Assembly (NCBI GenBank): GCA_021797795.1
Contig: JAJZZB010000003.1
Location: 13,659-77,658 of the forward strand
DNA: 64,000 nt
Source of the DNA: Actinomycetes bacterium
GTDB lineage: Bacteria > Actinomycetota > Acidimicrobiia > Acidimicrobiales > Bog-793
Reading direction: 5' to 3'
Shown here in pieces: positions 1-41,429 of the stretch (position 1 is its first letter; each line of letters starts with the position of its first letter). The translations under genes and the position numbers were made by a program. Under the pieces are notes generated by a model. It was not told where the DNA came from, searched no databases, and worked only from the letters and a program-made list of their open reading frames with translations.

Positions 1-1273
1 GAGAGCGAGTCTTGGCCGCCGCCAGGACGGCGTCCACACGACTCGGCGTGGGGTCCAGGTGGTGTTCGTGCAGCCAGTAGACGACGTTCGACTTGCCGCT
101 CATCGGCCCGATGGAGATCTCCTGGCTCCTCCCGACGAGCGATGCCGGCACCGCGCTGTAGACACGGTCCGCCAGCCAGGAGTCGCCCTTGGCGTAGGCC
201 TTGGCGACGGCGGCCGCGTGGACGCCCGTGCTCGTGGCGAAGGCGTCTCGGCCGATCACCGGGTAGTTGCGCGGGATCGGGACGCCGGTCATCCTGCTGG
301 CGATCCGGCAGTAGGCGGGCAGGTCCAGCAGGTCGATGTCCTTCCATCCGAGAAGGGCGATGTTGACGAGCACGAGGTCGAGCGCCGTGTTGCCGACGCG
401 CTCGCCGATGCCGAGCGCGCACCCGTGGACGCGCCTCGCTCCGGCCGAGAGGGCGGCGAGGGCGTTCACGACGTCGAGCCCGCGGTCGCGATGGCCGTGC
501 CAGTCGATGGCGGCGTCGGCGAAGCCGTGCGAGGCCAGCTCGCCGGCGACGAACTGGACGATCTGCTGGACCCCCGACGGTGCCGCGTGGCCGACGGTGT
601 CCGAGATGCAGAAGCGGGTGGCGCCCGCCTCGGCGGCGGCGAGGTACATGGTGGCGATGTCCTCGCGGCGCGCCCGCGTGGTGTCCTCGGTGACGAACAT
701 CACCTCGAGACCTGCGCGGACGGCGTAAGAGACGGCCTGCTCGATCGTCCTCGCAAGGCTCGACACGTCCCAGTCCTCGACCAGCTGGCGGATCGGGCTC
801 GACCCGATGAACAGGGCGGCGTCGATCGGCACGCCCGAGCGCTGCTGCGCCTCGGCGATGGGGTCGATGTCGTTGACGTGAGTCCGTCCGGCGCAGTTGG
901 CCCGGAGAGGGAGCCGCTCGTCGGCGATCGTCCGGGCGAGCCCGATGACGTCACGCAAGGCTGCCTCGCTCGCGCCGGCATAGCCGATGTCGGCCGCGTC
1001 GATGCCGACTCGGGGCAGATGGCGGAGAAACTCCTGCTTCTCGGAGAGGGACGGCTGGCGAACCGATGGGCACTGGAGCCCGTCGCGCAGCGTCTCGTCG
1101 TTGAGCTCGATGACCGTCGCCGGTTCGAGCCGGCACAGGCGCGGGGCGATCTCGTTCCAGTCGTAGACGAGGTCGGTCGGCTCCTCGCCGGCCTCCGCCG
1201 CGGGCGGCGTCGTCTGGGACCTGCGACTCGTCGTCCGCCCCGCTCCGTTCGTCCGCTGCTCGCTGCGTGCCAC
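1..1273 (-). CDS. LeuA-like DRE-TIM metallolyase (2-isopropylmalate/citramalate synthase family), 3' end runs off the window
   Basis: Manual translation (not in ORF track): VIELNDETLRDGLQ, VTEDTTRA, SDTVGH, WHGHRDRG (HxH metal site), GIGERVGN, GVHAAA, GPMSGKSN; in-frame GTG at 1273 with a GGAG-like RBS. Confidence 0.85.
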   Translation of the reverse strand, partial: MARSEQRTNGAGRTTSRRSQTTPPAAEAGEEPTDLVYDWNEIAPRLCRLEPATVIELNDETLRDGLQCPSVRQPSLSEKQEFLRHLPRVGIDAADIGYAGASEAALRDVIGLARTIADERLPLRANCAGRTHVNDIDPIAEAQQRSGVPIDAALFIGSSPIRQLVEDWDVSSLARTIEQAVSYAVRAGLEVMFVTEDTTRARREDIATMYLAAAEAGATRFCISDTVGHAAPSGVQQIVQFVAGELASHGFADAAIDWHGHRDRGLDVVNALAALSAGARRVHGCALGIGERVGNTALDLVLVNIALLGWKDIDLLDLPAYCRIASRMTGVPIPRNYPVIGRDAFATSTGVHAAAVAKAYAKGDSWLADRVYSAVPASLVGRSQEISIGPMSGKSNVVYWLHEHHLDPTPSRVDAVLAAAKTRS

Positions 1274-1466
1274 AGGACTCCCTCCCGCTCTCGCCACCTA
1301 CGGGCGGCCCGTGGGGCCCGAGCCCCCGCGTGCACGCCCCTCCTGCCCGCTACAGCCTCCGGCGGGCATGGCAGGCGTGCGTCCAGGGCGCACCCCTGCA
1401 CCGGGATCACCCCTTCTATGCCAGGTACTTTGCTCTACGTACTGTGGCTAGCACTACGTAGTAGCC

Positions 1467-1495
1467 AGAGTACGTTAGACTGTCCGGTCGGTCAA
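1467..1495 (-). promoter_or_regulatory. sigma70/HrdB-type promoter for the leuA-like gene (TTGACC-N17-TACTCT), overlapped by an imperfect palindrome at 1476-1495
   Basis: Reverse complement of ggtcaa (1490-1495) and agagta (1467-1472), 17-nt spacer, in an AT-richer divergent intergenic region. Confidence 0.5.
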
Positions 1496-1516
1496 GTTCT
1501 TTCTTGGGGAGGCGCG

Positions 1517-2773
1517 ATGCCCCGGCGGCGGGAGGCGGAGGACGCCCGGTCAGCGACAAGGCAGGGTGGCGACGAGGCGGCACGGCGGACCCCGGCTGCC
1601 CGCGCCTCGGAGCCGGATCGGAAGAAGGCGGCACGGCCCCACTGGGCGGATCTCTACGCCGAGGTCGTCGGGAGCCGCCTCTGCAGCGGCTGCGGCGCCT
1701 GCGTGGTCACCTGCCCGCGAGGCGTGCTCGGCTATCGGGACACCTCCCCGTTCCAGGACGACGACGGCTCGTCCGCGCACTCCTGCCGTTTCGGTGAGGC
1801 CGGCTGCGACGCCTGCACCCGCGCCTGCCCCCGCTTTCGCGCTGGGCCGACGGGCGTCGACGAGGCGCTCTTCGGCCGGCGCCGCCAGTCGGACGAGGCG
1901 GCCGGCGTCTTCGTCTCCGCTCTCGCGCTGAGAGCGGCTGAGCGGGAATGGCGCGGCCACTCCCAGGACGGGGGCCTCGTCTCGATGCTCCTCGTCTGGG
2001 CCCTCGAGACCGGCCGGATCGACGGAGCCGTCGTCGCAGGGTCCCGCCCGGGGCATCCGCTTCGCGGGGAGCCGGCGATCGCCCGCACACGAGACGAGAT
2101 CCTCGCCGCTGCCGGCTCGCGCTACACCTACGTGCCGAACCTGCTCGCTCTCGCCGCTGCGGCGCCGCAGGAACGCCTTGCCCTCGTGGGCGTCGGATGT
2201 CAGGTGAGCGGCCTTGTGACCGCCCAGCAGGCGCGCCTCAAGCGGTTCCGCTCGGTCGTCTTCCGGATCGGCCTCATGTGCAGCGAAACCTTCTCCGAAG
2301 CCCCGTTCCTCGACGGCCTGCTCGCCGCCAGGCTCGGGCTCGATCTCCACAAGATCGAGAAGGTGAACGTGAAGGGCAGGGTGGTCGTCTCGACCGAGGG
2401 CTCCCACCACGGCCACCTCGCCTCGGGTCCGGTGGCGGGCAGCCGTGCGCGCGTCGGGGGCGACGGCCGGATCGAGATCCCACTCTCCGAGGCGCGCCCC
2501 CTCGCCCGCCTCCAGTGCGCGTCGTGCTCGGACTTCAGCGCCGAATGGTCGGACCTGTCCGCCGGGGGCCTCGGGCTCGACGGGTGGACCGTCGGTCTCG
2601 TCCGCTCGCCGCTCGCCCGGGCCTGGATCGACCTCATGCTCGCCGAAGGGCTGCTCGAAGCGCGCGATCTCGGGCAGTTCCCACAGGCGGAGCGGCTGAT
2701 GCAGCGCCTCGCCGAGGCGCAGCGCGAACGGCCAGGCATCCATAGGCTGCTGCAGCCGGCACAGGGAGGATGA
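1517..2773 (+). CDS. FrhB/FdhB-family (coenzyme F420 hydrogenase/dehydrogenase beta subunit-like) Fe-S flavoprotein with N-terminal ferredoxin-type motifs
   Basis: CSGCGACVVTCP, GCDACTRACP, SQDGGLVS, AAGSRY, VGVGCQ, IGLMCSETF, CASCSDFSAEWSDLSAGG; ATG 1517 after GGGAGG; upstream part of the 59..2773 ORF is antisense to the leuA-like gene. Confidence 0.85.
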   Translation: MPRRREAEDARSATRQGGDEAARRTPAARASEPDRKKAARPHWADLYAEVVGSRLCSGCGACVVTCPRGVLGYRDTSPFQDDDGSSAHSCRFGEAGCDACTRACPRFRAGPTGVDEALFGRRRQSDEAAGVFVSALALRAAEREWRGHSQDGGLVSMLLVWALETGRIDGAVVAGSRPGHPLRGEPAIARTRDEILAAAGSRYTYVPNLLALAAAAPQERLALVGVGCQVSGLVTAQQARLKRFRSVVFRIGLMCSETFSEAPFLDGLLAARLGLDLHKIEKVNVKGRVVVSTEGSHHGHLASGPVAGSRARVGGDGRIEIPLSEARPLARLQCASCSDFSAEWSDLSAGGLGLDGWTVGLVRSPLARAWIDLMLAEGLLEARDLGQFPQAERLMQRLAEAQRERPGIHRLLQPAQGG

Positions 2774-3195
2774 TCGTCATGGAGCCACCGGTCCTGTCCA
2801 TCGTCGTCGGCTTCATCCGCAGCCCGGAGGGGCGGGCCGCCCTGGAGCATGCCGAAGAGGAGGCGCGCCTTCGCGGTGCGCGGCTCGTCATCGTCCACTC
2901 GAGCCGAGGAGGCGGCGGGGAGCGCCCCGAAGACGCGCTCGCCGACAGAGAGGAGCTCGAGCAGGTGGGCGAGCGGCTGGCGGCAGCGGGTGTCGCCCAT
3001 GAGGTTCGCGAGCTGGCACGGGGGGGCAGCCCAGCCGCCGACCTCGTCGACGTGGCGAACGAGGTCGGCGCCACCATGATCGTGATCGGGCTCCGCCGCC
3101 GGTCGAGGGTGGGCAAGCTCATCCTCGGCAGCAACGCCCAGGACACCCTGCTCGGTGCAGACTGCCCCGTGCTGGCCGTGAAACCGACCGACTGA
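2770..3195 (+). CDS. Universal stress protein (UspA family)
   Basis: IVVGF..SPEGRAALEHA, MIVIGLRRRSRVGKLILGSNAQDTLLGADCPVLAVK; ATGA overlap with the upstream gene. Confidence 0.9.
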   Translation: MIVMEPPVLSIVVGFIRSPEGRAALEHAEEEARLRGARLVIVHSSRGGGGERPEDALADREELEQVGERLAAAGVAHEVRELARGGSPAADLVDVANEVGATMIVIGLRRRSRVGKLILGSNAQDTLLGADCPVLAVKPTD

Positions 3196-3259
3196 GCGGG
3201 AGCGGGAGCGCCGCCTGGCGACCGACGGCGCAGGCGTCGCCCGCTGGGCCGCCTCGCGC

Positions 3260-4291
3260 TCAGGCTCGCCCGGTCGGCACGGGCAGGCGCCCGGCGGCCT
3301 CGACGATCGCCTGCTCGACCGCCCTGCGAGTCATCTGCTTGCGCCAGACGTAGTGCAGGTCGGCGTTGTCGAGCGGCTTGGCGACCTTGGCCGCCTCGGC
3401 CGCCACCTCTGCCAGCAGGCCGTCCGCCCCGGCCAGCACGTCGGCGGTCAGCTCGCGGCCGATCAGCGGGGCGGCGGCGGCGCTCACGTCGAAGGGCCGC
3501 GACCCGACGGCGGTGAGCACGATCCGGCAGTCGTCGACGAGCGGGCCGCTCCGGCGGAGCGCCACGGCCACCCCGGCGAGGGGGAAGTCGATCGTGTTGC
3601 GCCGCCTGACCTTCACGTACGACGAGCACCAACTCCCCGGAGCCGGGAGGCGCACGCTCTCGACGACCTCGTCCGCCGACTTCTCGAGGTAGTACTGCCC
3701 GTCGTCGCGGTAGAGCCCGTCCACCGGCACCTCCCGCCGCCGTCCGGCCGGACCGGCGAGCACGACCGACGCGCCGAGGGCGATGGCGGCGGGGGCGGTG
3801 TCGGACGAGGCGATCGCCCGGCAGCGCTTGCTGGCCGGCGCGACCCGGCAGATGTCGCCGTCCTTCTTCATGCAGAACCCGCATGCCTGTCGCCACTCGA
3901 AGCTCATGTCGTAGTAGTTGCAGCGCGTGTCGACGCAGAGGTTTCCCCCGATCGTGCCGACGTTGCGCAGGGCGGGGGACGAGACGAGGGCGGCGGCTCG
4001 CACGTAGGCGGGGTAGGCGGCCGCCAGGCGGCGGTGCGCGCTCACCTCGGCGAGCGTCACCCCTGCCCCGATCAGGAACCCGCCCTCCTCGGTCTCGGTG
4101 ACGGCGCGCAGCTCGGCGAGGTGCCCGAGACCGATGAGGACCTCCGGCTCCATCTGGCCGCGCTTCATCTTCGGGACGAGATCGGTCCCGCCGGCGACGA
4201 GCATCGCCCGCTCCCCGTGCCGGGAGAGCAGCTCGGCTGCCTCCTCGACCGAGCCCGGGCGGAGATAGCTACAGGGCGGCAGTCGCAGCAT
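3260..4291 (-). CDS. FAD-binding subunit of a xanthine-oxidase-family Mo enzyme, 4-hydroxybenzoyl-CoA reductase beta (HcrB)-like, with [4Fe-4S] insertion
   Basis: VAGGTDL, RNVGTIGGNL, insertion CVDTRCNYY..CGFCMKKDGDICRVAPASKRC, RRRNTIDFPL. Confidence 0.85.
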   Translation of the reverse strand: MLRLPPCSYLRPGSVEEAAELLSRHGERAMLVAGGTDLVPKMKRGQMEPEVLIGLGHLAELRAVTETEEGGFLIGAGVTLAEVSAHRRLAAAYPAYVRAAALVSSPALRNVGTIGGNLCVDTRCNYYDMSFEWRQACGFCMKKDGDICRVAPASKRCRAIASSDTAPAAIALGASVVLAGPAGRRREVPVDGLYRDDGQYYLEKSADEVVESVRLPAPGSWCSSYVKVRRRNTIDFPLAGVAVALRRSGPLVDDCRIVLTAVGSRPFDVSAAAAPLIGRELTADVLAGADGLLAEVAAEAAKVAKPLDNADLHYVWRKQMTRRAVEQAIVEAAGRLPVPTGRA

Positions 4292-6644
4292 CTGGCGGAG
4301 CAACCTTCACGAGCGGCGGGTAGGGGATCTGCGGGAAGCTCTTCGGACCGTAGCGGGGCTCCTTGCCCTTGGCGCGGGCGTCGAGCGCCCGCACGACCTT
4401 GTCGGGCGTGACCGGGACCTCGTCGACCCAGACGCCGAGCGCCTCGTGGACCGCTGAGACCACCGCCGGGATGACCGGGAGGAGCGGACCCTGGCCGACC
4501 TCCTTCGCGCCATAGGGTCCCTCGGGATCGAGCGTCTCCACGAGGATGGTCTCCACCTCCGGCATGTCGAGGAAGGTGAGCGACTTGTAGTCGAGCATGC
4601 TCGGCTGGCGGAGCAGACCGTCGCGGTAGGCCTGCGCCTCCATGAGCACCTCGCCGAGGCCCATGTAGACGCCCCCTTCCACCTGGCCGCGCACGGCGAG
4701 CTCGTTGATCGAGCGTCCGATGTCGTGGCCCAGCCAGACCTTGTTGACCCGGATCTCGCCGCTGCGCCCGTCTGCGTCCAGGTCGACGACGGCGGCCGAG
4801 TAGCTGTAGGCAGGGCTCGGCCCCACCCCGGCGCCCTTGTAACGGCCGCCGATTCCCTGCGGGGGCGTGTAGCTGCCGCGCGTCGAGAGCGCCCCGAAGC
4901 GCGCCTCGGCGAGCGCAGCCGCTTCCTCGAAGGCGATGAGGCCGATCCTCCCGTCGGCCACCGCCACCTCGTCGGGGGCACAGCCCTTCTCCTCGGCGAC
5001 GGCCCGGACGAGCAGCTCCCGCATCCTGGCGGCGGCCTCACGGGCGGCGTTGCCAGCCATGAAGGTGACCCGCGACGAGTACGAACCGAGGTCGACGGGG
5101 GTGAGCCCGGTGTCGCCGGTCACGAGCCGGATGTCGCCCGGCGAGAGACCGAGCTCCTCGGCGGCGATCGTCGCCAGCACGGTGTCCGAGCCCTGCCCGA
5201 TGTCGGTGGCGCCGCTCAGCAGGGTAACCCCGCCCCGGCCGACGTTGAGGATGCACTCGCTGTGCGGCATCGTGTTCCAGTAGATGGGCAGTCCCGCACC
5301 GCACATGTAGCTCGACACGGCGAAGCCCATCCCGTGCCCCGGGCGCTTCACCCGGTGCTCGTAGCCCGAGGCCTCGAGCACCCGGTCGGTGACCTCGCCG
5401 AGGCCGCACGAGGTGATCCGCAGCCAGTTGACGGTCCGGGTGAAGGGCCGCACGTAGTTCCGGCGCCGGAGCTCCACGGGGTCGATCCCGAGGTCCGCAG
5501 CCAGCTTGTCGAGATGGACCTCGAGGGCAAAGCGGGGCTGGGGAGTCCCGTGGCCGCGCTTCGGGCCGCAGGGCGCCTTGTTGGTGAACACGCGGGCGCC
5601 CTCGAAGCGGTAGGCGGGGATGGCATAGGTGGTCGTCTGCAGGGCGCCGGTGTAGAGGGTCGACGCCGGCCCGTAGGAGCCGTACGCCCCGCCGTCGAGG
5701 GCGCTGCGGAAGTGCATGGCGAGGATGCGGCCGTCGCGGTCGACGCCGGTGCGGACCCACATCAGCACCGGATGCCGCCCACGGTGGGTGTAGAAGACCT
5801 CCTCGCGGGTGAGGGTGCACTTGACGGGACGGCCCGTCATCAACGAGAGCTTGCAGACGGCAATCTCATGGGAGAAGGGGTCGCACTTGCCTCCGAAGCC
5901 CCCGCCGTGCGGCGCCGCCACCACCCGGACGCTGCCCATCGGAAGACCGAGCACCTTGGCGAGCGCGCGGTGCACGTAATGGGGATCCTGGGTCGACGAC
6001 CACAGCGTCACCTTGTCGCCGACGGCCTGCGCGGTGGCCGAGTGCTGCTCCATCGGCAGGTGGGTGTTGCCCTCGAAGAAGAAGACGTCCTCGCGCACGT
6101 GGGCCGCCTCGGCGAAGCCGGCGTCCACGTCGCCGAACTCGAGGGCGGCGAGGCGGTGGACGTTCGCCGGGCCGGCGTAGCCGTGGATCGGCTCGTCGTC
6201 GGGCGAGACGAGGGCCTGCTCGATCGACTCGACCGCCTCGAGCGGCTCGTAGCCGACCTCGATCGCCCGGCAGGCGGCGAGGGCGGTCTCCTCGTCCACG
6301 GCCGCCACGGCCGCCACCGGGTCGCCGACGAAGCGGACCTTCTCGTGCTCGAGGGCGAGCTCGTCCTCGCAGGTCGGCATGATGCCGTACTTCACCGGGA
6401 GGTCGTCGCCGGTGATGACGGCGACCACGCCCGGCATCGCCCGAGCCGCACTCGTGTCGATCGACACGATGCGGGCGTAGGGATGCTGGCTGCGCAGCAG
6501 CTTGCAGAAGAGCATGCCGGGGAGATCGATGTCGTCGGCGTAGGCGATCGCACCCGTCACCTTGGCTGCCGCATCGACCTTCGGCAGCCCTTTGCCCACG
6601 ACGTGCAATTCGCCGGCTTCGCGTCCGGCTGCGGGCGTCGTCAC
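4269..6644 (-). CDS. Molybdopterin-binding large subunit, 4-hydroxybenzoyl-CoA reductase alpha (HcrA)-like
   Basis: KVTGAIAYADD, GGGFGGK, HRGRHP, YTGAL, NKAPCGPKRGHG, GATDIGQGS, GSYSSRVTFMAGNA, GAKEVGQG; GTG start with GTGA overlap. Confidence 0.85.
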   Translation of the reverse strand: MTTPAAGREAGELHVVGKGLPKVDAAAKVTGAIAYADDIDLPGMLFCKLLRSQHPYARIVSIDTSAARAMPGVVAVITGDDLPVKYGIMPTCEDELALEHEKVRFVGDPVAAVAAVDEETALAACRAIEVGYEPLEAVESIEQALVSPDDEPIHGYAGPANVHRLAALEFGDVDAGFAEAAHVREDVFFFEGNTHLPMEQHSATAQAVGDKVTLWSSTQDPHYVHRALAKVLGLPMGSVRVVAAPHGGGFGGKCDPFSHEIAVCKLSLMTGRPVKCTLTREEVFYTHRGRHPVLMWVRTGVDRDGRILAMHFRSALDGGAYGSYGPASTLYTGALQTTTYAIPAYRFEGARVFTNKAPCGPKRGHGTPQPRFALEVHLDKLAADLGIDPVELRRRNYVRPFTRTVNWLRITSCGLGEVTDRVLEASGYEHRVKRPGHGMGFAVSSYMCGAGLPIYWNTMPHSECILNVGRGGVTLLSGATDIGQGSDTVLATIAAEELGLSPGDIRLVTGDTGLTPVDLGSYSSRVTFMAGNAAREAAARMRELLVRAVAEEKGCAPDEVAVADGRIGLIAFEEAAALAEARFGALSTRGSYTPPQGIGGRYKGAGVGPSPAYSYSAAVVDLDADGRSGEIRVNKVWLGHDIGRSINELAVRGQVEGGVYMGLGEVLMEAQAYRDGLLRQPSMLDYKSLTFLDMPEVETILVETLDPEGPYGAKEVGQGPLLPVIPAVVSAVHEALGVWVDEVPVTPDKVVRALDARAKGKEPRYGPKSFPQIPYPPLVKVAPPDAATAAL

Positions 6645-7132
6645 CTGCCCGACCTCGCCGCATCCTCGACGGCGTCGAGGATGCCCGCGTAGCCGGTGCA
6701 CCGGCAGAGGTTGCCTGCCAGTGCCTCCCTGATCTCCTCACGCGTCGGCGAGGGGTTGGCGTCGAGGAGCGCTCTCGCCGCCAGGACCATGCCAGGGGTG
6801 CAGTAGCCGCACTGCAGCCCTCCTCGCTCCATGAAGGCCCGCTGGACGGCGTCGAGCGTCGCCCCGTCGGCCAGGCCTTCGATCGTGGTGACCTCGGCAC
6901 CTTCCACCTGAGCCGGCAGGAGCAGGCAGCTCAGCTGAGGAACTCCGCCGACGAGCACGGTGCACGCGCCGCACTCGCCGAGCTCGCAGCCGTGCTTGGT
7001 CCCCGTCAGGCGGAGCTCCTCGCGCAGCACCTCGAGGAGCGTGGCGTACGGCCTCACGAGCAGCTCGCGCTCCTCGCCGTTCACCGACAGGCGCAGCACC
7101 TCGCGGCGGACGGGCGGCCGCATGACCGTCAC
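6641..7132 (-). CDS. (2Fe-2S)-binding small subunit (HcrC/CoxS-like)
   Basis: GTKHGCELGECGACTV, QCGYCTPG, GNLCRCTGY. Confidence 0.92.
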   Translation of the reverse strand: MTVMRPPVRREVLRLSVNGEERELLVRPYATLLEVLREELRLTGTKHGCELGECGACTVLVGGVPQLSCLLLPAQVEGAEVTTIEGLADGATLDAVQRAFMERGGLQCGYCTPGMVLAARALLDANPSPTREEIREALAGNLCRCTGYAGILDAVEDAARSGR

Positions 7133-7650
7133 CTCGCCCTGGCGGCGAGGGCGACGAGCAACGGCTCGATGCCGCCGTGGCTGAGCACGTCGAGCATCTG
7201 CTCGGGGATCCTGTCGGCTCGAAGGTGCGCCCGTCCCTCGCCGACGACCACCTCCCCCGCCACGATGTCCACCTCGACCACCTCGTGGTCGTGCACCGTC
7301 GCGCTCACCCCCGGGCAGCTGAGCGCAGGCAGGCCGAGCGCGATCGCGTTGCGGGCGAAGATCCGGGCGAGCGAGTCGGCCACGACCAGCGCGACGCCGA
7401 GGTCCTTCAGGTGCTGCGGGGCGGACTCCCGGCTCGAGCCGCAGCCGAAGTTCGCCCCGGCGACGAGGATGTCGCCCGGGCGTACCTGCGAGGCGAACTC
7501 GGGGCGGGCGGGCTCGAGGACGTGACGGAGCCGGATCTCCGGCGGGTCGTGGACGTACTGGCCGGGCGAGAGCATGTCCGTGCTGATGTCCGGCCCGAAC
7601 AGCCAGGCCCGGCCGCGAAGGCGGGTCATCTCGGGGGGAGTGCTCGTCAC
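7129..7650 (-). CDS. LeuD-like dehydratase small subunit (aconitase swivel domain)
   Basis: GRAWLFGPDISTDMLSPG, GANFGCGSSRESA, FARNAIALGLP; GTGA overlaps at both ends. Confidence 0.9.
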   Translation of the reverse strand: MTSTPPEMTRLRGRAWLFGPDISTDMLSPGQYVHDPPEIRLRHVLEPARPEFASQVRPGDILVAGANFGCGSSRESAPQHLKDLGVALVVADSLARIFARNAIALGLPALSCPGVSATVHDHEVVEVDIVAGEVVVGEGRAHLRADRIPEQMLDVLSHGGIEPLLVALAARAR

Positions 7651-8951
7651 CTCGTCACCTCCTGTCGCGTGTCGCTCACCGCCAGCTCGCGTGGATCGGC
7701 GATGACCCCGGCGAGGGCGGAGGCGGCGGCCGTGGCCGGGGAGCCGAGGTAGACCTCGCCCTCCGGGCTGCCCATGCGGCCCCGGAAGTTGCGGTTGTGC
7801 GTCCCGAGGCAGCGCTCGCCCGGCGCGAGCAGACCGAGGTGGCCACCGAAGCACGGGCCGCAGCCCGGTCCCTCGATGATGGCGCCCGCCGCCGACAGCT
7901 CGGTGAGGACGCCCTCCTCCGCCGCCTGGCGGTAGACGGTCGAGGAGGCCGGCGTGACGATCATGCGCAGGCCGGAGGCGATCCTGCGGCCCCGGAGGAT
8001 GCGAGCCGCCTCGCGCAGGTCCTCGATCCTGCCGTTGGTGCACGAGCCGAGGAATACCTGGTCGAGGTGCAGGCCGGCGACCTCTCCCACGTCGACGACG
8101 TTCTCGACGTGGTGCGGAACGGCGACCTGAGGCGAGAGGGCGGACAGGTCGACATGGTGGGTGGCGGCGTAGCGGGCACCGTCGCGCGCCGTGGCTGCGC
8201 CGGCGGCCGGGAACAGTGAGAACTTCGCACCCATCTCGACGCCCATGTTCGCAATGGTCATCCGCTCGGCGAGTGACAACGAGTCCGCACCCGAGCCGCC
8301 GTGCTCGATCGAGCGGTACTGCGCCTCGCTCGAGCCGATCTCGCGCACGAGGAACAGCACGAGGTCCTTCGCCGCCACGGACGGCGCCAGCCGACCCTCG
8401 AGCGCGACGAGGACGGTCTCGGGCACCTTGAACCAGAGCTCCCCGGTGGCCAGGGCGTAGGCCATCTCCGAGCTGCCGATGCCACAGCCGGCCGCACCGA
8501 GGGCCCCGTAGGTCGTCGAGTGCGAGTCGGTGCCGACCACGAGGTCGCCCGGCCGGACGCGGCCCTCCTCGACCATCACCTGGTGGCAGATCCCGCGGCC
8601 GATCTCGAAGAAGGCCTCGATCCCGTAGCGCCGGACGAGTCGCCGCGCCTTGGCCTGGTGCTCGGCTGCGGCGACGGAGGGTGCCGGCACCATGTGGTCG
8701 AAGACCACGGTGGCGCGGCCGGGGTCGTGCAGGCGCTCGATCCCGGCCCGCTCCAGCATGCCGAGGACGTCGGCGGCGAAGATGTCGTGCATCATCATTG
8801 CGTCGATCTTCGCGACGACGTACTCGCCGGGCTCCACCCGGGCGGCCCCGCTGGCCCTGGCGAGGACGGTCTCGGCAGCCGTCATCTCAGGCGGCTCCGC
8901 CGCTCCGCTCGCGTCCTTCGCCAGACGCTCGATCCTCGCGTTCGCTGTCAT
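7647..8951 (-). CDS. LeuC-like dehydratase large subunit ([4Fe-4S] aconitase family)
   Basis: VFDHMVP, GICHQV, GTDSHSTTYGALG, FLGSCTNGR, GCGPCFGGHLG, THNRNFRGRMG. Confidence 0.9.
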   Translation of the reverse strand: MTANARIERLAKDASGAAEPPEMTAAETVLARASGAARVEPGEYVVAKIDAMMMHDIFAADVLGMLERAGIERLHDPGRATVVFDHMVPAPSVAAAEHQAKARRLVRRYGIEAFFEIGRGICHQVMVEEGRVRPGDLVVGTDSHSTTYGALGAAGCGIGSSEMAYALATGELWFKVPETVLVALEGRLAPSVAAKDLVLFLVREIGSSEAQYRSIEHGGSGADSLSLAERMTIANMGVEMGAKFSLFPAAGAATARDGARYAATHHVDLSALSPQVAVPHHVENVVDVGEVAGLHLDQVFLGSCTNGRIEDLREAARILRGRRIASGLRMIVTPASSTVYRQAAEEGVLTELSAAGAIIEGPGCGPCFGGHLGLLAPGERCLGTHNRNFRGRMGSPEGEVYLGSPATAAASALAGVIADPRELAVSDTRQEVTR

Positions 8952-9034
8952 TGCTGCCTCCTCGTTCCGTCCATGCCCTCCCGGCTCGGGCCCACCTGCC
9001 CGGGCACCGGGAGAGGGAGCCGTCTCGAGCATGC

Positions 9035-30671: not shown

Positions 30672-32963
30672 TCAGGAGCCGGCGAGAGCCGCGTCGAGGC
30701 TCTCGGCGAGCTCGTCGCCGTCGCCCTCGGAGAACACGAGCGGTGGCCTGATCTTGACGACGTTGCCGGCCGGGCCAGTCGTACCGACGAGCACGCCGAG
30801 GCGGCGGAGCCGGTTGGCGACGCCCTTGGCCGAGGCGGCGTCGGCCCGGCCGTCCGTGCCGAGGATGTCGAGACCGAACAGCAGCCCCCAGCTGCGGAGC
30901 CCGCCGGCGGCGTCGTGGCGGGAGACGACTTCGTCGAGCAGCGCCCGCAGGTGCGCCCCCGACGAGGCGGCGTTCTCGACGAGACCCTCCCGCTCGACCA
31001 CGCCCAGCACGGCGAGGGCGGCCGCACAGGCGAGCGTGTTGCCGCCGAAGGTGCTGAAGTAGCCCGTGGCGTCGATGAAGGGGTCGACGAGCTCGGCGCG
31101 CCCGAGGAGGGCGGCCACCGGGAAGCCGTTGCCCATGGGCTTGCCGAGGGTCATGAAGTCCGGCTCGATCCCGGACGGCCCGATGCTCCACAGCCCTTCG
31201 CCGGTCCGCCCGTAGCCGGCCTGCACCTCGTCGGCGACGAAGAGCCCGCCGGCCGCCCTGACCGCCTCGGCCGCCTCGAGCAGCCAGTCGGTCGCCGGGC
31301 CCCGGACCCCGTCGCTCGTGAAGGCCGAGTCGACGAAGAGGGCCGCCGGGGCATGCCCGGCCTCCGACAGCGCCGAGACGACACGACGGTGCCGACCGTC
31401 GTCCGTCTTGCCCGAGGGCGGGGAGAGCAGGCCGATGTGGTCGGGGGCGAAGCCCGCCGGCCACTCCTCGGGCGAGAGAGCCGTCGTCGCCTCGGTCACG
31501 CCGTGGTAGGCGTGCGAGGTGACGAGGGCGCCGCTGTGACCGGTGGCGAAACGGGCGATCCGCCAGACGATGTCGTTCGCCTCGCTCCCTGAGTTCACGA
31601 ACAGGACGCGGTCGAGCCCCGCCGGAGCCCGCTCGACGAGCCGCTCGGCGAGTTCGACGCTCGCCTCGGTCAGATACCGGGTGTTCGTGACGAGCCGGCG
31701 CGCCTGGGTGGCGATGGCGGCCGCCACCGCCGGGTGGCAGTGGCCGACGACCGGGACGTTGTTGTAGGCGTCGAGGTAGCGCCGCCCCTCGGCGTCGAAG
31801 AGGTGGACGCCTTCTCCCCGGACGAGGTGGACCGGCTCGTCGTAGGTGAGCCCGAGCGACCCGAGGACGCGGCGGCGGGCGGCGAGCAGTCCCGCCGTCT
31901 CCCGGACCTCGTAGCCCTGCCGGGGTGCCGGGCCGGCCGCGGGGCGGGCGGCGGTGGCGAGGCGGGCACCGACCCGGTCGAGGCCCTCGCCCGCCAGGAG
32001 CCGGAGGAAGTCGACCGCCCCGCCTGGGAAGGCGGGGGCGTCGGCGTGCCGGCTGCGGCGCCAGGTGCTCACGACGACGGCCGTGGCACACCGGGCGGCG
32101 ACGAGGTCACCGAGGAGGACGGCCTCGTCCTCCTCGAGGGGCGTCACCTCGCAGTAGCCGGCGATCATCGGCTCGGCCAGCTCGAGCGAGCCGGGCCGGC
32201 CGTCGAGGACGTCGGCGAGAGCCACGGCGAGGTCGCAGACGAGGGCCGTGTGGGTCATGTCGCCGAAGTCGGTGATGCCGACGACCCGCCCGGCGTCGTC
32301 GACGAGGACGTTCTCCCGGCTGAGGTCGTTGTGCACCACCTGGGCGCGGAGCCGCTCGAGCACCGGCTGGACGCGCTCGTCGAACCGGTCGATCACCTCG
32401 GTGACGAGCGCCCGGCGCTCCTCGTCGAGAAGGGGTAGGCGGTCCCGCAGGGCCGGCGTGTGCCGGACGTCCCACTGGATCGGGTAGCCGGCCGCCGGGT
32501 GGAAGTAGCCGCGCAGCGCCCGCCCGAGCCGCGCCGCGTCGCGGCCCAAGCCGGCGAGGGCGGCGGTGCCGAGCTCGTCGCGCTCCGCGTGCCGGCCGTC
32601 GAGGAAGGTGAACAGCTGGACGAGCGACTCCCTGCCGTCCGGTCCGGTGACGGCCGCGATCGTCTCGCCGCCCCGGGTGGGGAGCACCTCGGGGATCGGG
32701 AGGCTCGGGTCGACCCGGCGGATGTGGGCGAGGGCGCCCGTGCGCATCTCGACGACGTCGCGCAGGTCGGCCGGGTTGTGGATCTTGATGAGGACGCGGC
32801 GGGCGGCGCCGTCGACGCGGAAGTTGACGTCGCGCTCGCCGTGCAGCTCGTGGAGCTCCCCGACGAGGCCGTACCGCTCCTCGAGGACCCGGGCGGCGAG
32901 CTCGCGGTCGAAGGCCGGACGTGGTTCCTCGAGAGGATCGGTCATGGGCACATCCTCGCTCAT
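30672..32963 (-). CDS. Fusion: aminoglycoside/choline-kinase-like phosphotransferase + class III PLP enzyme (hydroxylysine kinase / phospho-lyase, AGXT2L-type)
   Basis: LHGERDVNFR, QVVHNDLSRENVL, ITDFGD; then YLDAYNNVPVVGHCHP, FVNSGSEAND, ADEVQAGYGR, TLGKPMGNG (PLP Lys), KIRPPL. Confidence 0.88.
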   Translation of the reverse strand: MSEDVPMTDPLEEPRPAFDRELAARVLEERYGLVGELHELHGERDVNFRVDGAARRVLIKIHNPADLRDVVEMRTGALAHIRRVDPSLPIPEVLPTRGGETIAAVTGPDGRESLVQLFTFLDGRHAERDELGTAALAGLGRDAARLGRALRGYFHPAAGYPIQWDVRHTPALRDRLPLLDEERRALVTEVIDRFDERVQPVLERLRAQVVHNDLSRENVLVDDAGRVVGITDFGDMTHTALVCDLAVALADVLDGRPGSLELAEPMIAGYCEVTPLEEDEAVLLGDLVAARCATAVVVSTWRRSRHADAPAFPGGAVDFLRLLAGEGLDRVGARLATAARPAAGPAPRQGYEVRETAGLLAARRRVLGSLGLTYDEPVHLVRGEGVHLFDAEGRRYLDAYNNVPVVGHCHPAVAAAIATQARRLVTNTRYLTEASVELAERLVERAPAGLDRVLFVNSGSEANDIVWRIARFATGHSGALVTSHAYHGVTEATTALSPEEWPAGFAPDHIGLLSPPSGKTDDGRHRRVVSALSEAGHAPAALFVDSAFTSDGVRGPATDWLLEAAEAVRAAGGLFVADEVQAGYGRTGEGLWSIGPSGIEPDFMTLGKPMGNGFPVAALLGRAELVDPFIDATGYFSTFGGNTLACAAALAVLGVVEREGLVENAASSGAHLRALLDEVVSRHDAAGGLRSWGLLFGLDILGTDGRADAASAKGVANRLRRLGVLVGTTGPAGNVVKIRPPLVFSEGDGDELAESLDAALAGS

Positions 32964-32993
32964 GGCGACTCGGCCTCCGAGCGCCGAGGCGCC

Positions 32994-34676
32994 TCAGCCG
33001 GCCTGGCGGTCGTAGACGACCGAGCCGTCGACGAGGGTGAGGTCGACGCCGACGAGTCCGATCTCGGAGGAGGGGACCGAGAAGACGTCCCGGTCGAGGA
33101 CGACGAGGTCGGCCCGCTTGCCGACGGTGATCGAGCCGGTCGTCTCCTCGAGATGGTTGAAGTAGGCCGAGCCGAGCGTGAAGGCCTCGATCGCCGTGGC
33201 GAGGTCCATCCGCTCGTCGGGCAGGAAGGGCGTCTCGGCCGCGTCGCCGCCACCGTAGGCATAGTCGGGCGGGACGGTCCGGTTGACCGCGACGTGAATC
33301 TCCGAGAGGGCGTTCGGCGTCGAGACCGGCCAGTCACTGCCGAAGCAGAGCCGGGCGCCGGCCCGCTTCAGGCTGGCGAAGGGGTACTGGGTGCTCGCCC
33401 GCTCGGGGCCGAGGAAGGGGAGGGTCAGCTCGGTCATCTGCGGCTCGTAACAGGCCCACAGCGGCTGGCCGTTGGCCAGCAGGCCGAGGGCGGCGAAGCG
33501 GGGGAGGTCCTCTGGGTGGACGACCTGGATGTGGGCGGCGCAGTGTCGGTGGTCGGAGGTTCCGTTCGCCCTCCTCGCCGTCTCGACGGCGTCGAGGACC
33601 TCCCGCACGGCGCGGTCGCCGATGGCGTGGAAGTGGGCCTGGAAGCCCTCTCTGTCCACCCTCGTGACGTACTGCTTGAGCTCCTCCGGGTTGAAGAAGC
33701 TCGTGCCGTGGTTGTGGGTGGCGTGCCCCTCCCGGTCGAGATAGGGCGTCAGCATGGCGGCCGTGAAGTTCTCGCAGACGCCGTCCTGCATGAACTTGAC
33801 CGAGCTCGCGCGAAAGCGCCCACCCGGGGCGGCCGCCTTCTCCCGGCGGGCGAGCAGGTGGTCGATCTGGCCCTCGCCGCCGTCGCGGGACCACCAGAGC
33901 GCCCCGACGACGCGTGCGGTGAGGCGGCCGTCGGCATCGAGGGCGAGGAAGGCGTCGAAGCAGTCCGGGACGACCGGGTAGTCGCCGACGATGGCCTCCT
34001 GCCAGGCGGTGATGCCGAGGCTGTGGAGGTAGCGCTGGCCCTCGAGGATGCCGTTCGCCAGCGCCTCGACGGTCGGCGCCGGGACGACTCGCTGGACGAG
34101 CGCCATGGCGCCCTCCTGCAGGGTCCCGACCGGCTCGCCGCCGGCGTCCCGCTCGATCCTGCCGTCGGCGGGGTCGGGTGTGCCGGCACGGATCCCGGCG
34201 CGCTCGAGGGCGACCGAGTTCGCCCAGGCGGCGTGGTGGTCGCGATTGGAGAGGAAGACCGGGCGGTCGGGGACGACCGAGTCGAGCTCCTCCTTGAGCG
34301 GCACTCCCCCCGGGAAGACGTCCATCGCCCAGCCGCCACCGGTGATCCACTCGACCTCAGGGTGGGCGGCGGCGGAGGCGGCGAGGATGGCGAGATACTC
34401 CTCCCTGCTGTGGGCCTCGGAGAGGTCGCACCGGCTGCGCTCGAGGCCGCCGCCCGAAGCGTGCACGTGCGCGTCCTGGAAGCCGGGCAGGAGGCTGCGA
34501 CCGGCGAGGTCGACGACCTCGGTGCGGGCGCCGGCGAGCTCTCGAACCTCATCATCGCTGCCGACAGCGACGATGACGCCGTCGCGCACCGCCACGGCCC
34601 CTGCGGTCGGCAGGTCGGCGTCCACGGTGTGAACGGCCCCGTTCTTGAAGATGAGGTCCGCCTCGGAGGTGGTCAT
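32994..34676 (-). CDS. Amidohydrolase family 3 (YtcJ/NfdA-like)
   Basis: PGFQDAHVH, FHAIGDRA, AHIQ, FGSDWPV, GSITVGKRADLVVLD. Confidence 0.9.
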   Translation of the reverse strand: MTTSEADLIFKNGAVHTVDADLPTAGAVAVRDGVIVAVGSDDEVRELAGARTEVVDLAGRSLLPGFQDAHVHASGGGLERSRCDLSEAHSREEYLAILAASAAAHPEVEWITGGGWAMDVFPGGVPLKEELDSVVPDRPVFLSNRDHHAAWANSVALERAGIRAGTPDPADGRIERDAGGEPVGTLQEGAMALVQRVVPAPTVEALANGILEGQRYLHSLGITAWQEAIVGDYPVVPDCFDAFLALDADGRLTARVVGALWWSRDGGEGQIDHLLARREKAAAPGGRFRASSVKFMQDGVCENFTAAMLTPYLDREGHATHNHGTSFFNPEELKQYVTRVDREGFQAHFHAIGDRAVREVLDAVETARRANGTSDHRHCAAHIQVVHPEDLPRFAALGLLANGQPLWACYEPQMTELTLPFLGPERASTQYPFASLKRAGARLCFGSDWPVSTPNALSEIHVAVNRTVPPDYAYGGGDAAETPFLPDERMDLATAIEAFTLGSAYFNHLEETTGSITVGKRADLVVLDRDVFSVPSSEIGLVGVDLTLVDGSVVYDRQAG

Positions 34677-36403
34677 CTCGCTGCTCGCTCCCCTCTCGGT
34701 CGCTGCCGGCGCCTGTGCGCCGGTCCGTCGTCGTTGCTCCTCGGTGGCGCCTCGAGGCGCCCGTCCGCCCGGTCGGCCTCCTCGGCGACGACCGGTCGGC
34801 GCGTCGGCGCACCGTAGCCGCCTCCCCCGCTGGTCTCGATGCGGACGACCGACCCCGGCTCGAGGGTCATGGTGACCTTGGAGGGGACGGGGACCTCGAC
34901 GCCGTCGGGCCCGAAGAGCCGGAGACGGGAGGGCGCGCCGTCACCGCCACCGGCCGCTCCGCGCGGGGGGAAGCGGGGGTCAGTCTGCTCGGAGTACATC
35001 GTCACCGTCGCCGGACGCTCGAGCACCTGGTAGTCCCGGCGCAGACCGAGGCCGCCGTGGTGCTCGCCGGTGCCCGCCGAGCCGGGGATCAGCTCGGTGC
35101 GCAGGATGCGCACCGAGTAGTCGCTCTCGGCCACCTCGACCGGCATGAGGCCGACGTTTGCCATGTAGGTGTCGACGCCGTCCAGCCCGTCGCCGCCGGC
35201 ATGGGCGCCCGTCCCGCCGCCAACGACCTCCGCCATGACGCTCGAGAGGCCGCTGCGGGGCGAGACGCTCTCGAGGTTCATGCCGAAGAAGGCGACCGTG
35301 CTGCTCGCCACGGCCTTGTGCGGCCACAGCTCGGAGGCCGCCCGCACGAGGGTGTCGGCGAGCCGCTGGCAGGTGTTGTGGCGGACCGAGACGGCCGCCG
35401 GCGGCTCGGGGTTCAACAGGACCCCGCGGGGGCAGACGATCTCGAGCGGGCGGAGGATCCCGTCGTTGGTCGCCATCGAGGGGTCGGTCATCGCCCGCAG
35501 GGCGTAGACGACGGCCGCCCGGGTGCTCGCCCAGGGGACGTTGAGCGCCCCGCTCAGCTGCGGGGCGGTGCCCGACAGGTCCACCAGCAGCTCGTCGCCC
35601 GTCTTCACGAGGCGGGCGTGGATCCGCTGGGGCGGGCCGCCGGTGCCGTCGTCGTCGAGGAAGCCCTCCGCCTCGGACTCGCCGTCGGGGAGGGCGGCGA
35701 GCGCCGCGCGGACGGCCCGCTCGACCGAGTCGAGCATCTCGTCGAAGGCGGCCAGCAGCCTGGGCGTCCCGTAGCGGGCGGCCAGCTCCTCGATGCGCGA
35801 CACGCCGATCAGGCAGGCCGCCCGCTGGGCGCGCAGGTCCGACAGCGTGGAGCGCGGGTCGCGCACGGCCGCCGCCACGATGGAGACGACGTCGGGGTTC
35901 TCCCGGCCGGCGCGGTAGAGGCGCACCGGCGGGAGCACGAGGCCCTCGGCGTAGACCTCCCTCAGGTCCGGTCCCTCGGTGCCCGGCCGCACCCCTCCGA
36001 CGTCGATGTGGTGCGCCGTCGTGCCGGTCCAGGCGACCAGGTGGCCGCCCAAGAAGACGGGCATGATCACGTTCAGGTCGGGGGTGTGCATGGCCCCCAT
36101 GTAGGGATGGTTGGCGAGATAGGCGTCCCCCGGCTCGACGGCGTCACCCCAGCGTTCGATCAGGTTCTTCACGACGAGCGACATCGCCCCGAGCTGGGCG
36201 GGGATGAAGTCGGCCTGGGCGACGAGGTCGCCGTCGGAGCGGAACACGGCGCAGCTGAAGTCGTCCATCTCGCGGATGATCGGGCTGTAGCTCGAGTGCT
36301 TCAGCACGCCGCCCATCTCGACGGCAGCCGAGTGCAGGGCGGCCGAGATCAGCTCGAAGGTGACCGCCGGCAGCCGAGTGCCGGCGCCGGTCCGCCGGCT
36401 CAC
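34673..36403 (-). CDS. Hydantoinase B / oxoprolinase subunit
   Basis: SSYSPIIREMDDFSCA, NHPYMGAMHTPD, HHIDVGG, GGGGYG; GTGA overlaps. Confidence 0.92.
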   Translation of the reverse strand: MSRRTGAGTRLPAVTFELISAALHSAAVEMGGVLKHSSYSPIIREMDDFSCAVFRSDGDLVAQADFIPAQLGAMSLVVKNLIERWGDAVEPGDAYLANHPYMGAMHTPDLNVIMPVFLGGHLVAWTGTTAHHIDVGGVRPGTEGPDLREVYAEGLVLPPVRLYRAGRENPDVVSIVAAAVRDPRSTLSDLRAQRAACLIGVSRIEELAARYGTPRLLAAFDEMLDSVERAVRAALAALPDGESEAEGFLDDDGTGGPPQRIHARLVKTGDELLVDLSGTAPQLSGALNVPWASTRAAVVYALRAMTDPSMATNDGILRPLEIVCPRGVLLNPEPPAAVSVRHNTCQRLADTLVRAASELWPHKAVASSTVAFFGMNLESVSPRSGLSSVMAEVVGGGTGAHAGGDGLDGVDTYMANVGLMPVEVAESDYSVRILRTELIPGSAGTGEHHGGLGLRRDYQVLERPATVTMYSEQTDPRFPPRGAAGGGDGAPSRLRLFGPDGVEVPVPSKVTMTLEPGSVVRIETSGGGGYGAPTRRPVVAEEADRADGRLEAPPRSNDDGPAHRRRQRPRGERAAR

Positions 36404-40642: not shown

Positions 40643-40652
40643 GTGCTCCCTC

Positions 40653-41429
40653 CTAGATGGCGGTGGCACCGCCGTCGACCGGGAGGGCGGCGCCGGTGAC
40701 GTAGGCGGCATCGGGGGAGGCGAGGAAGGCGATCACCGCCGCCACCTCGTCGGCCGAGCCGAGGCGGCCGAGGGGGACCGAGCTCTCGAGGTAGGCGGCC
40801 GCCGCCACCGGGTCGTCGGTGAGCCGCAGCATGGGGGTGTCGATAACGCCCGGGCAGACGGCGTTGACCCGGATGCCGTGCGGAGCCCACTCGACGGCCA
40901 TCTGCCGGCTGAGGGCGAGCACCCCGCCCTTGCTCGCGTGGTAGTGGCCGGAGGGCTCGCCGGCGTCGCCGACGAGCGCCGCGCTCGAGGCGAGGTTGAC
41001 GACGGCGCCCGGGTGCCGCGCCGCCACGAGGGAGCGCCCGACGGCTCGGGAGACGAGGAAGGTGCCGGTGAGGTTGGTCTCGAGCACCTCGTGCCACTCC
41101 GCCGCCGACAGCTCAGTGAGGGCCTGGATCCGGTAGACGCCAGCGGCGTTGACGAGCACGTCGATCGGCCCGCCGAGCACGCGGGCGGCCTCCGCCACGG
41201 CCCGGTCCACGGCCTCCTCGTCGGCCACGTCGGCGATGACGAGGCTCATCCCGTCGACCTCCCCGCCGGGAGCCTCCCGGCGGTCGAGGGCCACGACCGC
41301 CCCGCCCTCTGCGGCGAGCCGGCGCGCCGTGGCGAGCCCGATGCCCGATGCCCCGCCCGTGACGAGGCAGCGCCGGCCGGCCATCCTGGCGGGCAGGGGG
41401 ACGGGCGCCTCAGTTGTGGAAGACGCCAC
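40653..41429 (-). CDS. Short-chain dehydrogenase/reductase
   Basis: TGGASGIG, VNAAG, YHASKGG, VNAVCPG, VDGG; start may be ATG near 41384. Confidence 0.9.
   Translation of the reverse strand: MASSTTEAPVPLPARMAGRRCLVTGGASGIGLATARRLAAEGGAVVALDRREAPGGEVDGMSLVIADVADEEAVDRAVAEAARVLGGPIDVLVNAAGVYRIQALTELSAAEWHEVLETNLTGTFLVSRAVGRSLVAARHPGAVVNLASSAALVGDAGEPSGHYHASKGGVLALSRQMAVEWAPHGIRVNAVCPGVIDTPMLRLTDDPVAAAAYLESSVPLGRLGSADEVAAVIAFLASPDAAYVTGAALPVDGGATAI

What the first reader, a model, noticed from the sequence alone, without database searches (positions are those of the whole stretch)
1..8951. LeuA-like + LeuCD-like without a LeuB-type dehydrogenase
Seen: a DRE-TIM enzyme and a LeuCD pair, but no isopropylmalate/isocitrate-dehydrogenase-family gene in the cluster. 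Known: LeuCD paralogues act as dimethylmaleate, citraconate or maleate hydratases in catabolism, and DRE-TIM enzymes include retro-aldol/Claisen lyases. Inference: the trio works catabolically (hydrate a substituted maleate, cleave the resulting malate derivative), or elongates a non-standard 2-oxo acid.
Basis: partly seen in the sequence, partly recalled or inferred. Interest (0 to 1): 0.55.

Follow-up and report, generated by a model that had tools for sequence, protein, structure and literature searches.

The report
LeuB-free aromatic acid breakdown module
These leucine-pathway look-alike genes lack their usual partner because they belong to a conserved gene set that probably breaks phenylpyruvate- or phenylacetate-type compounds down to benzoyl-CoA plus succinate without oxygen, by a route I did not find in the searched literature.

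Summary
No leuB lies in the cluster or in the 13.6 kb left of the window; housekeeping leuCD and leuB sit on another contig.

The LeuA-like gene runs on out of the window as a 1069-aa in-frame fusion to IorA (arylpyruvate:ferredoxin oxidoreductase alpha). The operon then continues with IorB, KorABC, a CoA-transferase, a hydratase, a BbsD-like dehydrogenase, a BbsAB-like thiolase, a methylitaconate-isomerase-like PrpF and PaaK. It probably continues into benzoyl-CoA reductase genes on the next contig.

The module recurs in 19 loci from several phyla, none with LeuB. A single-contig genome with no leuA, leuB or housekeeping leuC found carries all of it. The DRE-TIM domain keeps synthase residues, not lyase ones.

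Best reading (inferred, about 0.65): arylpyruvate + acetyl-CoA gives 2-benzylmalate, LeuCD dehydrates it to benzylmaleate, PrpF isomerises it to benzylidenesuccinate, and Bbs-like beta-oxidation yields benzoyl-CoA + succinyl-CoA. LeuB is not needed. This scan noted the same module before on other DNA, and those notes steered me to PrpF. The repeated IorA fusion and the leucine-auxotroph control were tested here.

The parts
1..1297 (-). LeuA-like DRE-TIM synthase domain, the N-terminal part of a 1069-aa LeuA-like/IorA fusion (C105:11746-14955) that runs 1,913 bases beyond the left edge of the window. Start at GTG 1297 or 8 codons later. Downstream, left of the window on contig C105, all minus strand: iorB 10766-11749, korA 9603-10751, korB 8689-9606, korC 8105-8692, CaiB-type CoA-transferase 6863-8098, enoyl-CoA hydratase 6008-6793, BbsD-like SDR 5217-5963, BbsA-like OB/Zn subunit 4717-5148, BbsB-like thiolase 3582-4733, PrpF/Mii-like isomerase 2378-3508, PaaK 1038-2381, Oah-like 1-807 (cut by the contig end).
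   Evidence: (TIGR03336 677 bits, cut-off 650.9)
1517..2773 (+). FrhB/FdhB-family ferredoxin-flavoprotein; not seen in the other module loci, frameshifted in G320; accessory
2770..3195 (+). Usp-type protein by sequence appearance; a Usp gene occupies the same slot in relative L147; accessory
3260..4303 (-). HcrB-like FAD subunit; best solved relative is 4-hydroxybenzoyl-CoA reductase beta (1rm6), with the four-cysteine insert aligned
4269..6644 (-). HcrA-like molybdopterin subunit; best family TIGR03194, 784 bits, below the 994.55 cut-off
6641..7132 (-). HcrC-like 2x[2Fe-2S] subunit
7129..7650 (-). LeuD/DmdB-type small subunit with a module-specific loop motif, unlike housekeeping and LeuB-linked LeuDs
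7647..8951 (-). LeuC/HacA-type large subunit; predicted 2-benzylmalate dehydratase; 34% identical to the housekeeping LeuC
9035..9799 (-). BadH-like SDR; accessory, not in the conserved core
9802..11468 (-). GctA/GctB-like pair; beta lacks the GctB catalytic Glu, alpha keeps the IpdA-type Glu; accessory

Best explanation
The genes are the front half of a conserved oxygen-independent funnel into benzoyl-CoA. SHOWN: gene content, fusion, conservation, absence of LeuB, catalytic residues. INFERRED steps: (1) phenylacetate or its 4-hydroxy form is activated by PaaK and reductively carboxylated by IorAB to the arylpyruvate, using ferredoxin reduced by KorABC; or the arylpyruvate comes straight from Phe/Tyr transamination. 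(2) The LeuA-like domain condenses arylpyruvate with acetyl-CoA to 2-benzylmalate; thioester hydrolysis makes this one-way and could pull step 1, which would explain the fusion. (3) LeuCD dehydrates it to benzylmaleate. (4) The PrpF/Mii-like isomerase shifts the double bond to benzylidenesuccinate (phenylitaconate). (5) The CaiB-type transferase activates it with succinyl-CoA. (6) Hydratase, BbsD-like SDR and BbsAB-like thiolase give benzoyl-CoA + succinyl-CoA. (7) HcrCAB removes a 4-hydroxy group, and Bcr/Oah degrade the ring. LeuB is not needed because the route leaves at the maleate, and BbsG is not needed because the double bond already exists.
For: Thiolase, OB subunit and SDR each have a benzylsuccinate beta-oxidation enzyme as best PDB hit (7pxp BbsB 275 vs 236 bits next; 7pxp BbsA; 7pcs BbsD 251 vs 211 for the best FabG). 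The isomerase's best hit is 3-methylitaconate isomerase (258 vs 186 bits), the maleate/itaconate shift needed, with its Lys and Cys motifs kept. In 300 class genomes the 13 with the synthase are exactly the 13 with the high-scoring PrpF (312-350 bits, next 195), and 11 of them hold the LeuC orthologue, which no non-carrier has. 0 of 19 module loci have a LeuB-type gene and 2 of 19 an acyl-CoA dehydrogenase. G058 (1 contig, 96%) has the whole module; its only PF00180 gene is NADP-IDH, and no LeuA_dimer or housekeeping LeuC was found. L150 holds hcrCAB-leuCD-paaK-synthase-iorAB-korABC-caiB-ech-sdr-bbsAB-prpF as one co-directional run. Module synthases fall on one branch (SH-aLRT 99), apart from LeuB-linked ones. 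The fusion needs at least 4 changes on the tree and is present in a second genome, G320. Ala136 matches HphA Ala73, the residue tied to its aromatic selectivity; IPMS has Leu and HCS His there (PMC12961565). bcr genes lie within 9 of 19 loci, and contig C189 opens with the other half of Oah followed by bcrCBAD.
Against: No enzyme was assayed, and all carriers I found are uncultured. The pocket residues (A/M/V/C/H) are shared by the whole subfamily, including LeuB-linked members, and match HphA at only 1 of 5 positions, so they do not prove an aromatic substrate. The CoA-transferase is closer to succinate-HMG CoA-transferase (276 bits) than to BbsEF (137). No BbsC partner was seen, and the hydratase could not be shown to be BbsH-like. 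PaaK is in only 5 of 19 fetched loci, and L034 and L056 lack neighbouring iorAB/kor, so the direction and need of IOR are uncertain. The C105-C189 join is inferred from the split Oah gene; there is no exact overlap. Class relatives are kin and not independent. E/Z and R/S compatibility of the steps is untested.
Confidence: 0.65

Rival explanations
1. Same chemistry, other substrate: the 2-oxo acid is another aryl or heteroaryl pyruvate (indole-, methyl-, dihydroxy-phenyl) or an alicyclic one, and the product is the matching aroyl-CoA.
For: IOR-family enzymes take several arylpyruvates (established knowledge; PMC5109826). The pocket is not diagnostic. HcrA is below its curated cut-off.
Against: Bcr, Had/Dch/Oah and Hcr-like neighbours point to benzoyl- and 4-hydroxybenzoyl-CoA. 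PaaK is the best family for the ligase, though below cut-off.
Confidence: 0.13
2. One reading: a substituted maleate or benzylidenesuccinate is hydrated to 2-benzylmalate, activated, cleaved by the DRE-TIM to arylpyruvate + acetyl-CoA, and IOR oxidises the arylpyruvate (or the module builds Phe from benzoyl-CoA).
For: The RDGLQ motif also occurs in HMG-CoA lyases (own knowledge). A CoA-transferase is present. Oxidation is IOR's usual direction, and a fusion suits product hand-over too. Bbs reactions can run in reverse (PMC10818641).
Against: Glu204, His360, Tyr380 and the C-terminal subdomain of hydrolysing synthases are invariant in all 109 homologues aligned. HMG-CoA lyase scores 24 bits against 150-176 for synthases and ranks 47th by fold. 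No glycyl-radical enzyme to supply benzylsuccinate was found. Oxidising to phenylacetyl-CoA would leave it without a found exit, as no paa epoxidase was found.
Confidence: 0.1
3. True one-carbon elongation (HphABCD-like) with housekeeping LeuB acting in trans: phenylpyruvate to 2-oxo-4-phenylbutanoate, OFOR to 3-phenylpropionyl-CoA, then ordinary beta-oxidation to benzoyl-CoA + acetyl-CoA.
For: This genome has a leuB. Sister-subfamily loci do pair the synthase and LeuCD with a LeuB-type gene, IorAB and PaaK (L020). Two OFORs are present.
Against: G058 and G142 carry the module with only IDH in PF00180. The module usually lacks an acyl-CoA dehydrogenase. PrpF and BbsAB/BbsD orthologues would be unexplained.
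Confidence: 0.07
4. Ordinary leucine or lysine biosynthesis paralogues that happen to lie in a catabolic island.
For: Canonical leuA was not found in this assembly.
Against: Most family relatives have leuA, near leuD in those examined; in G320 it lies 1.3 kb past leuD, beyond the 536 bp held on our contig C65, so a gap is likely. G320, G038 and G174 hold both canonical leuA and the module gene. No IPMS pocket residue is matched.
Confidence: 0.03

Closest known systems
HphA/HphCD/HphB homophenylalanine pathway of cyanobacteria
   Same: LeuA-type condensation of arylpyruvate with acetyl-CoA, then a LeuCD-type step; Ala at the HphA Ala73 position (PMC12961565).
   Different: No HphB/LeuB; catabolic setting; only 1 of 5 pocket residues match; fused or adjacent to IorA; followed by a PrpF isomerase.
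Benzylsuccinate beta-oxidation, BbsEF-G-H-CD-AB (Thauera, Aromatoleum, Geobacter)
   Same: BbsA-, BbsB- and BbsD-like best hits; predicted benzylidenesuccinyl-CoA intermediate; same end products (PMC10818641).
   Different: No benzylsuccinate synthase found, no BbsG, no BbsC; a single CaiB gene unlike BbsEF; entry by Claisen condensation rather than radical fumarate addition.
Nicotinate fermentation of Eubacterium barkeri: Mii, DmdAB, Dml
   Same: PrpF-family itaconate/maleate isomerase paired with a LeuCD-type hydratase (pathway from own knowledge).
   Different: Predicted to run the other way, with a synthase instead of the dimethylmalate lyase, on an aryl substrate.
Pad pathway (PadJ, PadBCD, PadEFGHI) of Thauera/Aromatoleum
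   Same: Same overall job: phenylacetate to benzoyl-CoA without oxygen (PMC5109826).
   Different: Pad oxidises the alpha carbon with a Mo enzyme and releases CO2; this module would add CO2 and acetyl-CoA and release succinate.
Desulfococcus multivorans phenylacetate/phenylpyruvate cluster (iorA3B3, phenylpyruvate reductase, phenyllactate dehydratase, thiolase)
   Same: No Pad genes; IorAB formed on phenylacetate; step to benzoyl-CoA left unexplained (PMC5109826).
   Different: No isopropylmalate or PrpF annotation in its supplement; it probably solves the problem through phenyllactate and cinnamoyl-CoA (my inference).

Membership tests
DRE-TIM Claisen-condensing synthases (LeuA superfamily) | R-D motif, HxH metal site, GERxGN, catalytic Glu, and C-terminal His/Tyr subdomain | tested here: met
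   R71-D72, H267/H269, E204, H360, Y380; invariant in alignments; top fold hits are HCS, MAM and IPMS
2-isopropylmalate synthase (LeuA) | Curated cut-off, Leu/Glu/Ser/Asn/Glu pocket, regulatory domain | tested here: not met
   152-176 bits against cut-offs 517-748; pocket A/M/V/C/H; IorA in place of LeuA_dimer
Homocitrate synthase | His/Arg/Thr/Ser/His pocket for 2-oxoglutarate; cut-off | tested here: not met
   only the last His matches; 167 vs 462.9 bits
HphA benzylmalate synthase | Ala73/Asp157/Ala159/Met186/Ser242 pocket | tested here: inconclusive
   Ala73 met, other four differ; mapped through the 6KTQ and 3RMJ alignments, not against HphA itself
HphABCD pathway | HphB/LeuB-type decarboxylating dehydrogenase in the cluster | tested here: not met
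   0 of 19 loci; none in G058
HMG-CoA / citramalyl-CoA lyase | Barrel-only protein scoring as HMGL | tested here: not met
   24 bits vs cut-off 246; synthase subdomain present
LeuC/HacA/DmdA hydro-lyases | Family cut-off and 4Fe-4S cysteine motifs; small subunit present | tested here: met
IOR alpha (TIGR03336) | Curated cut-off | tested here: met
   677.1 vs 650.9 bits
Bbs pathway | BbsAB thiolase and BbsD dehydrogenase | tested here: inconclusive
   best PDB hits, but BbsB model 292 vs cut-off 750
Bbs pathway | BssA, BbsG, BbsC, heterodimeric BbsEF | tested here: not met
   no PF02901 hit; no acyl-CoA dehydrogenase in the cluster; single CaiB
PrpF/Mii isomerases | PF04303 with catalytic Lys and Cys motifs | tested here: met
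4-hydroxybenzoyl-CoA reductase | Curated cut-offs; four-cysteine insert in the beta subunit | tested here: inconclusive
   best family but below all three cut-offs; cysteines align with 1rm6_B
Any assignment above | Enzyme activity and substrate | not testable with these tools
   needs assays

The most novel reading that the evidence does not exclude
An undescribed anaerobic route from phenylacetate/Phe/Tyr to benzoyl-CoA, spread over Acidimicrobiia, Chloroflexota, Sysuimicrobiota, Acidobacteriota and others. A natural IOR-synthase fusion couples CO2-fixing reductive carboxylation of arylacetyl-CoA to an irreversible Claisen condensation, reaches the toluene-pathway intermediate benzylidenesuccinyl-CoA without radical chemistry, and makes net succinate from acetyl-CoA and CO2.
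Probability: 0.4. Interest if true: 0.85.

Novelty: new variant of a known kind. Interest (0 to 1): 0.7.

Why it matters
The characterised oxygen-free route from phenylacetate to benzoyl-CoA is the Pad pathway, and some anaerobes that grow on phenylacetate lack it, leaving the step open (PMC5109826). This module offers a complete, carbon-balanced alternative (C8 + C1 + C2 = C7 + C4) that can be rebuilt in vitro from eight to ten proteins. If true, bbsA/B/D-like genes in metagenomes do not always indicate toluene degradation, many proteins named '2-isopropylmalate synthase' or 'LeuA family protein' are misassigned, and a non-radical enzymatic route to benzylidene- and benzylsuccinate becomes available.

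Tried and rejected
leuB left of the window: not there. Fusion as an assembly error: rejected, because G320 and P0003/P0004 have the same fusion and GC3 is even across the join; laying public contigs was uninformative since no piece spans the join. No RNA holder was listed. Re-citrate synthase was considered as a lead only and not tested; the gene neighbourhood does not suggest it. I first took the PrpF gene for a second PaaK and corrected this. Placing the hydratase near BbsH failed for lack of a reference. Literature searches for benzylmalate, benzylmaleate, phenylitaconate, benzylidenesuccinate, PrpF with benzoylsuccinyl-CoA thiolase, and IOR with isopropylmalate and phenylacetate found no description of this route; most subscription papers are not in the library. 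No cultured carrier turned up in the cluster members read; one Streptomyces plasmid has a 45% homologue whose context I did not read. No complex prediction was run. PadB and PadEFGHI were not searched for specifically in this genome.
Full report
Setting. The window is G000:C105:13659-77658 of a 3.8-Mb, 324-contig assembly, 93.75% complete. Its close homologues are labelled Acidimicrobiales, and the best read holders are mine-drainage metagenomes, so an acidimicrobial actinobacterium is likely (inference).

Observation. The LeuA-like, LeuC-like and LeuD-like genes are present at the stated place. The only PF00180 gene in the genome is a leuB above its cut-off on contig C65, with housekeeping leuC and leuD; a citramalate synthase is on C80. 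The cluster LeuC is 34% identical to the housekeeping one. Canonical leuA was not found. Most family relatives have it, near leuD in those examined, and in G320 it lies 1.3 kb past leuD, while C65 ends 536 bp past leuD, so a gap is the likely cause.

What lies left of base 1. The DRE-TIM frame does not stop. It continues into a full IorA that passes TIGR03336. It is followed on the same strand by iorB, korABC, a CaiB-type CoA-transferase, an enoyl-CoA hydratase, an SDR, an OB/Zn protein, a thiolase, a PrpF-family isomerase, PaaK and an Oah-like gene cut by the contig end. Contig C189 begins with the other half of an Oah, then bcrCBAD, a probable benzoate-CoA ligase and boxC/boxB-like genes. 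The join is inferred; no exact overlap was found.

The fusion is real and recurrent. Ten other protein clusters have the same architecture at 59-89% identity in the synthase part. G320, a separate genome, has the same open frame. In an 84% identical unfused relative the stop codon lies one base before the iorA start, so fusion is a small event. On a tree of 53 sequences fused and unfused forms need at least four changes. Repeated fusion suggests a shared 2-oxo acid, but tight gene spacing alone also makes it easy.

Conservation. The same gene set occurs in Acidimicrobiia, other Actinomycetota, Sysuimicrobiota, Acidobacteriota and a Kiloniellaceae MAG, and close synthase homologues occur in Chloroflexota. 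Among 19 module loci: IorA 17, CaiB 17, hydratase 17, LeuC/LeuD 16, BbsD-like 16, BbsA/B-like 13, PrpF 12, Hcr 10, Bcr 9, PaaK 5, acyl-CoA dehydrogenase 2, LeuB 0. Several of the absences fall at the edge of the fetched DNA. In 300 genomes of the class, the 13 with the synthase are the same 13 with the high-scoring PrpF, and 11 of them have the LeuC orthologue, which no non-carrier has; these genomes are kin. Module synthases form one side of a well-supported branch, apart from homologues that sit with a LeuB-type gene. G058, one contig and 96% complete, has the whole module, while its only PF00180 gene is NADP-IDH next to a malate dehydrogenase-like gene, and no LeuA_dimer or housekeeping LeuC was found. 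The module therefore appears neither to need LeuB nor to make leucine.

Synthase or lyase. The domain keeps R71-D72, the H267/H269 metal pair, GERxGN, Glu204, His360 and Tyr380, which align with the catalytic set of homocitrate and isopropylmalate synthases (roles from established knowledge). Its model (pLDDT 78.5) matches homocitrate, methylthioalkylmalate and isopropylmalate synthases first and HMG-CoA lyase only at rank 47. At the five pocket positions listed for HphA, HCS and IPMS (PMC12961565) it has Ala, Met, Val, Cys, His. That is no IPMS match, one HCS match, and a match to HphA Ala73, the position that paper links to selectivity. The same residues occur across the subfamily, so this fits a bulky apolar substrate without proving an aromatic one.

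Why no LeuB. The isomerase is closest to 3-methylitaconate isomerase, which moves a double bond between a substituted maleate and an itaconate. The SDR, OB subunit and thiolase are closest to BbsD, BbsA and BbsB, which finish benzylsuccinate degradation through (E)-benzylidenesuccinyl-CoA (PMC10818641). Taken together: arylpyruvate + acetyl-CoA gives 2-benzylmalate; LeuCD stops at benzylmaleate; PrpF gives benzylidenesuccinate; the CoA-transferase, hydratase, SDR and thiolase give benzoyl-CoA and succinyl-CoA, which feeds back as CoA donor. The carboxyl to be activated is the one next to the benzylidene carbon, as in Bbs. This accounts for both absences, LeuB and BbsG. Every chemical step here is inference.

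Entry. IOR normally oxidises arylpyruvates. With PaaK present, a second ferredoxin-reducing OFOR in the same run, and no paa epoxidase found, reductive carboxylation of phenylacetyl-CoA pulled by the synthase is the most economical reading. It is less certain than the core, because some loci lack PaaK or IOR. Desulfococcus multivorans, which has no Pad genes, also forms IorAB on phenylacetate (PMC5109826). Hcr-like genes in 10 of 19 loci point to 4-hydroxy substrates such as tyrosine.

Comparison and novelty. It works like HphA plus half of HphCD, then like Mii and DmdAB in reverse, then like BbsH/D/AB, but it fails the membership tests for the Hph and Bbs pathways as wholes. No paper in the searched library describes the combination. 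Before looking up earlier scan notes I held two versions open, with and without LeuB. Notes on other genomes named benzoyl-CoA plus succinyl-CoA and a PrpF gene, which led me to search for PrpF here; I then tested the gene content, co-occurrence and residues myself. Those notes are leads, not support.

Verdict. A real, conserved and testable predicted pathway built from known enzyme families: new variant of a known kind, interest 0.70, mechanism about 0.65.

Noticed in passing
window 9035-11468 (-): The GctAB-like pair lacks the GctB Glu54 (Ala here; Ala or Gly in G174 and L023) but keeps the Glu aligned with IpdA Glu105, and sits beside a BadH-like SDR; the same trio is in G174 and L023. It may be an IpdAB-type ring-opening hydrolase standing in for BadI, not a CoA-transferase.
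   Followed up: partly
C105:1-19136 against G320:C63 (L143): The cluster is 94% identical in DNA to a genome of another genus, against 79-81% at the housekeeping leu genes, and was found in only 1 of 24 family genomes searched; recent horizontal transfer is likely.
   Followed up: partly
L020:6001-14696: A sister subfamily in Chloroflexi has the synthase fused to LeuC, with LeuD, a LeuB-type gene, a thioesterase, IorAB and PaaK: possibly a true aryl chain-elongation pathway.
   Followed up: partly
L052, L090, L094 (match at 10001): In some Acidobacteriota a related synthase directly follows bcr/had/oah genes without LeuCD; it could be a Re-citrate-type or other synthase.
   Followed up: no
G000:C189:683-11667: Anaerobic bcrCBAD and oxygen-using boxC/boxB-like genes lie on one contig, suggesting benzoyl-CoA use under both conditions.
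   Followed up: no
G000 whole genome: No PF00180-type isocitrate dehydrogenase was found; a monomeric IDH was not searched for.
   Followed up: no
L001:10766-11749: IorB is about 325 aa; relatives carry an extra C-terminal 4Fe-4S domain, perhaps standing in for the KOR delta subunit.
   Followed up: no
window 30672-47837 (-): A second catabolic stretch that looks by eye like an aminotransferase fusion, amidohydrolase, hydantoinase B, luciferase-like protein, SDRs, deacetylase and ABC transporter; not annotated with tools.
   Followed up: no
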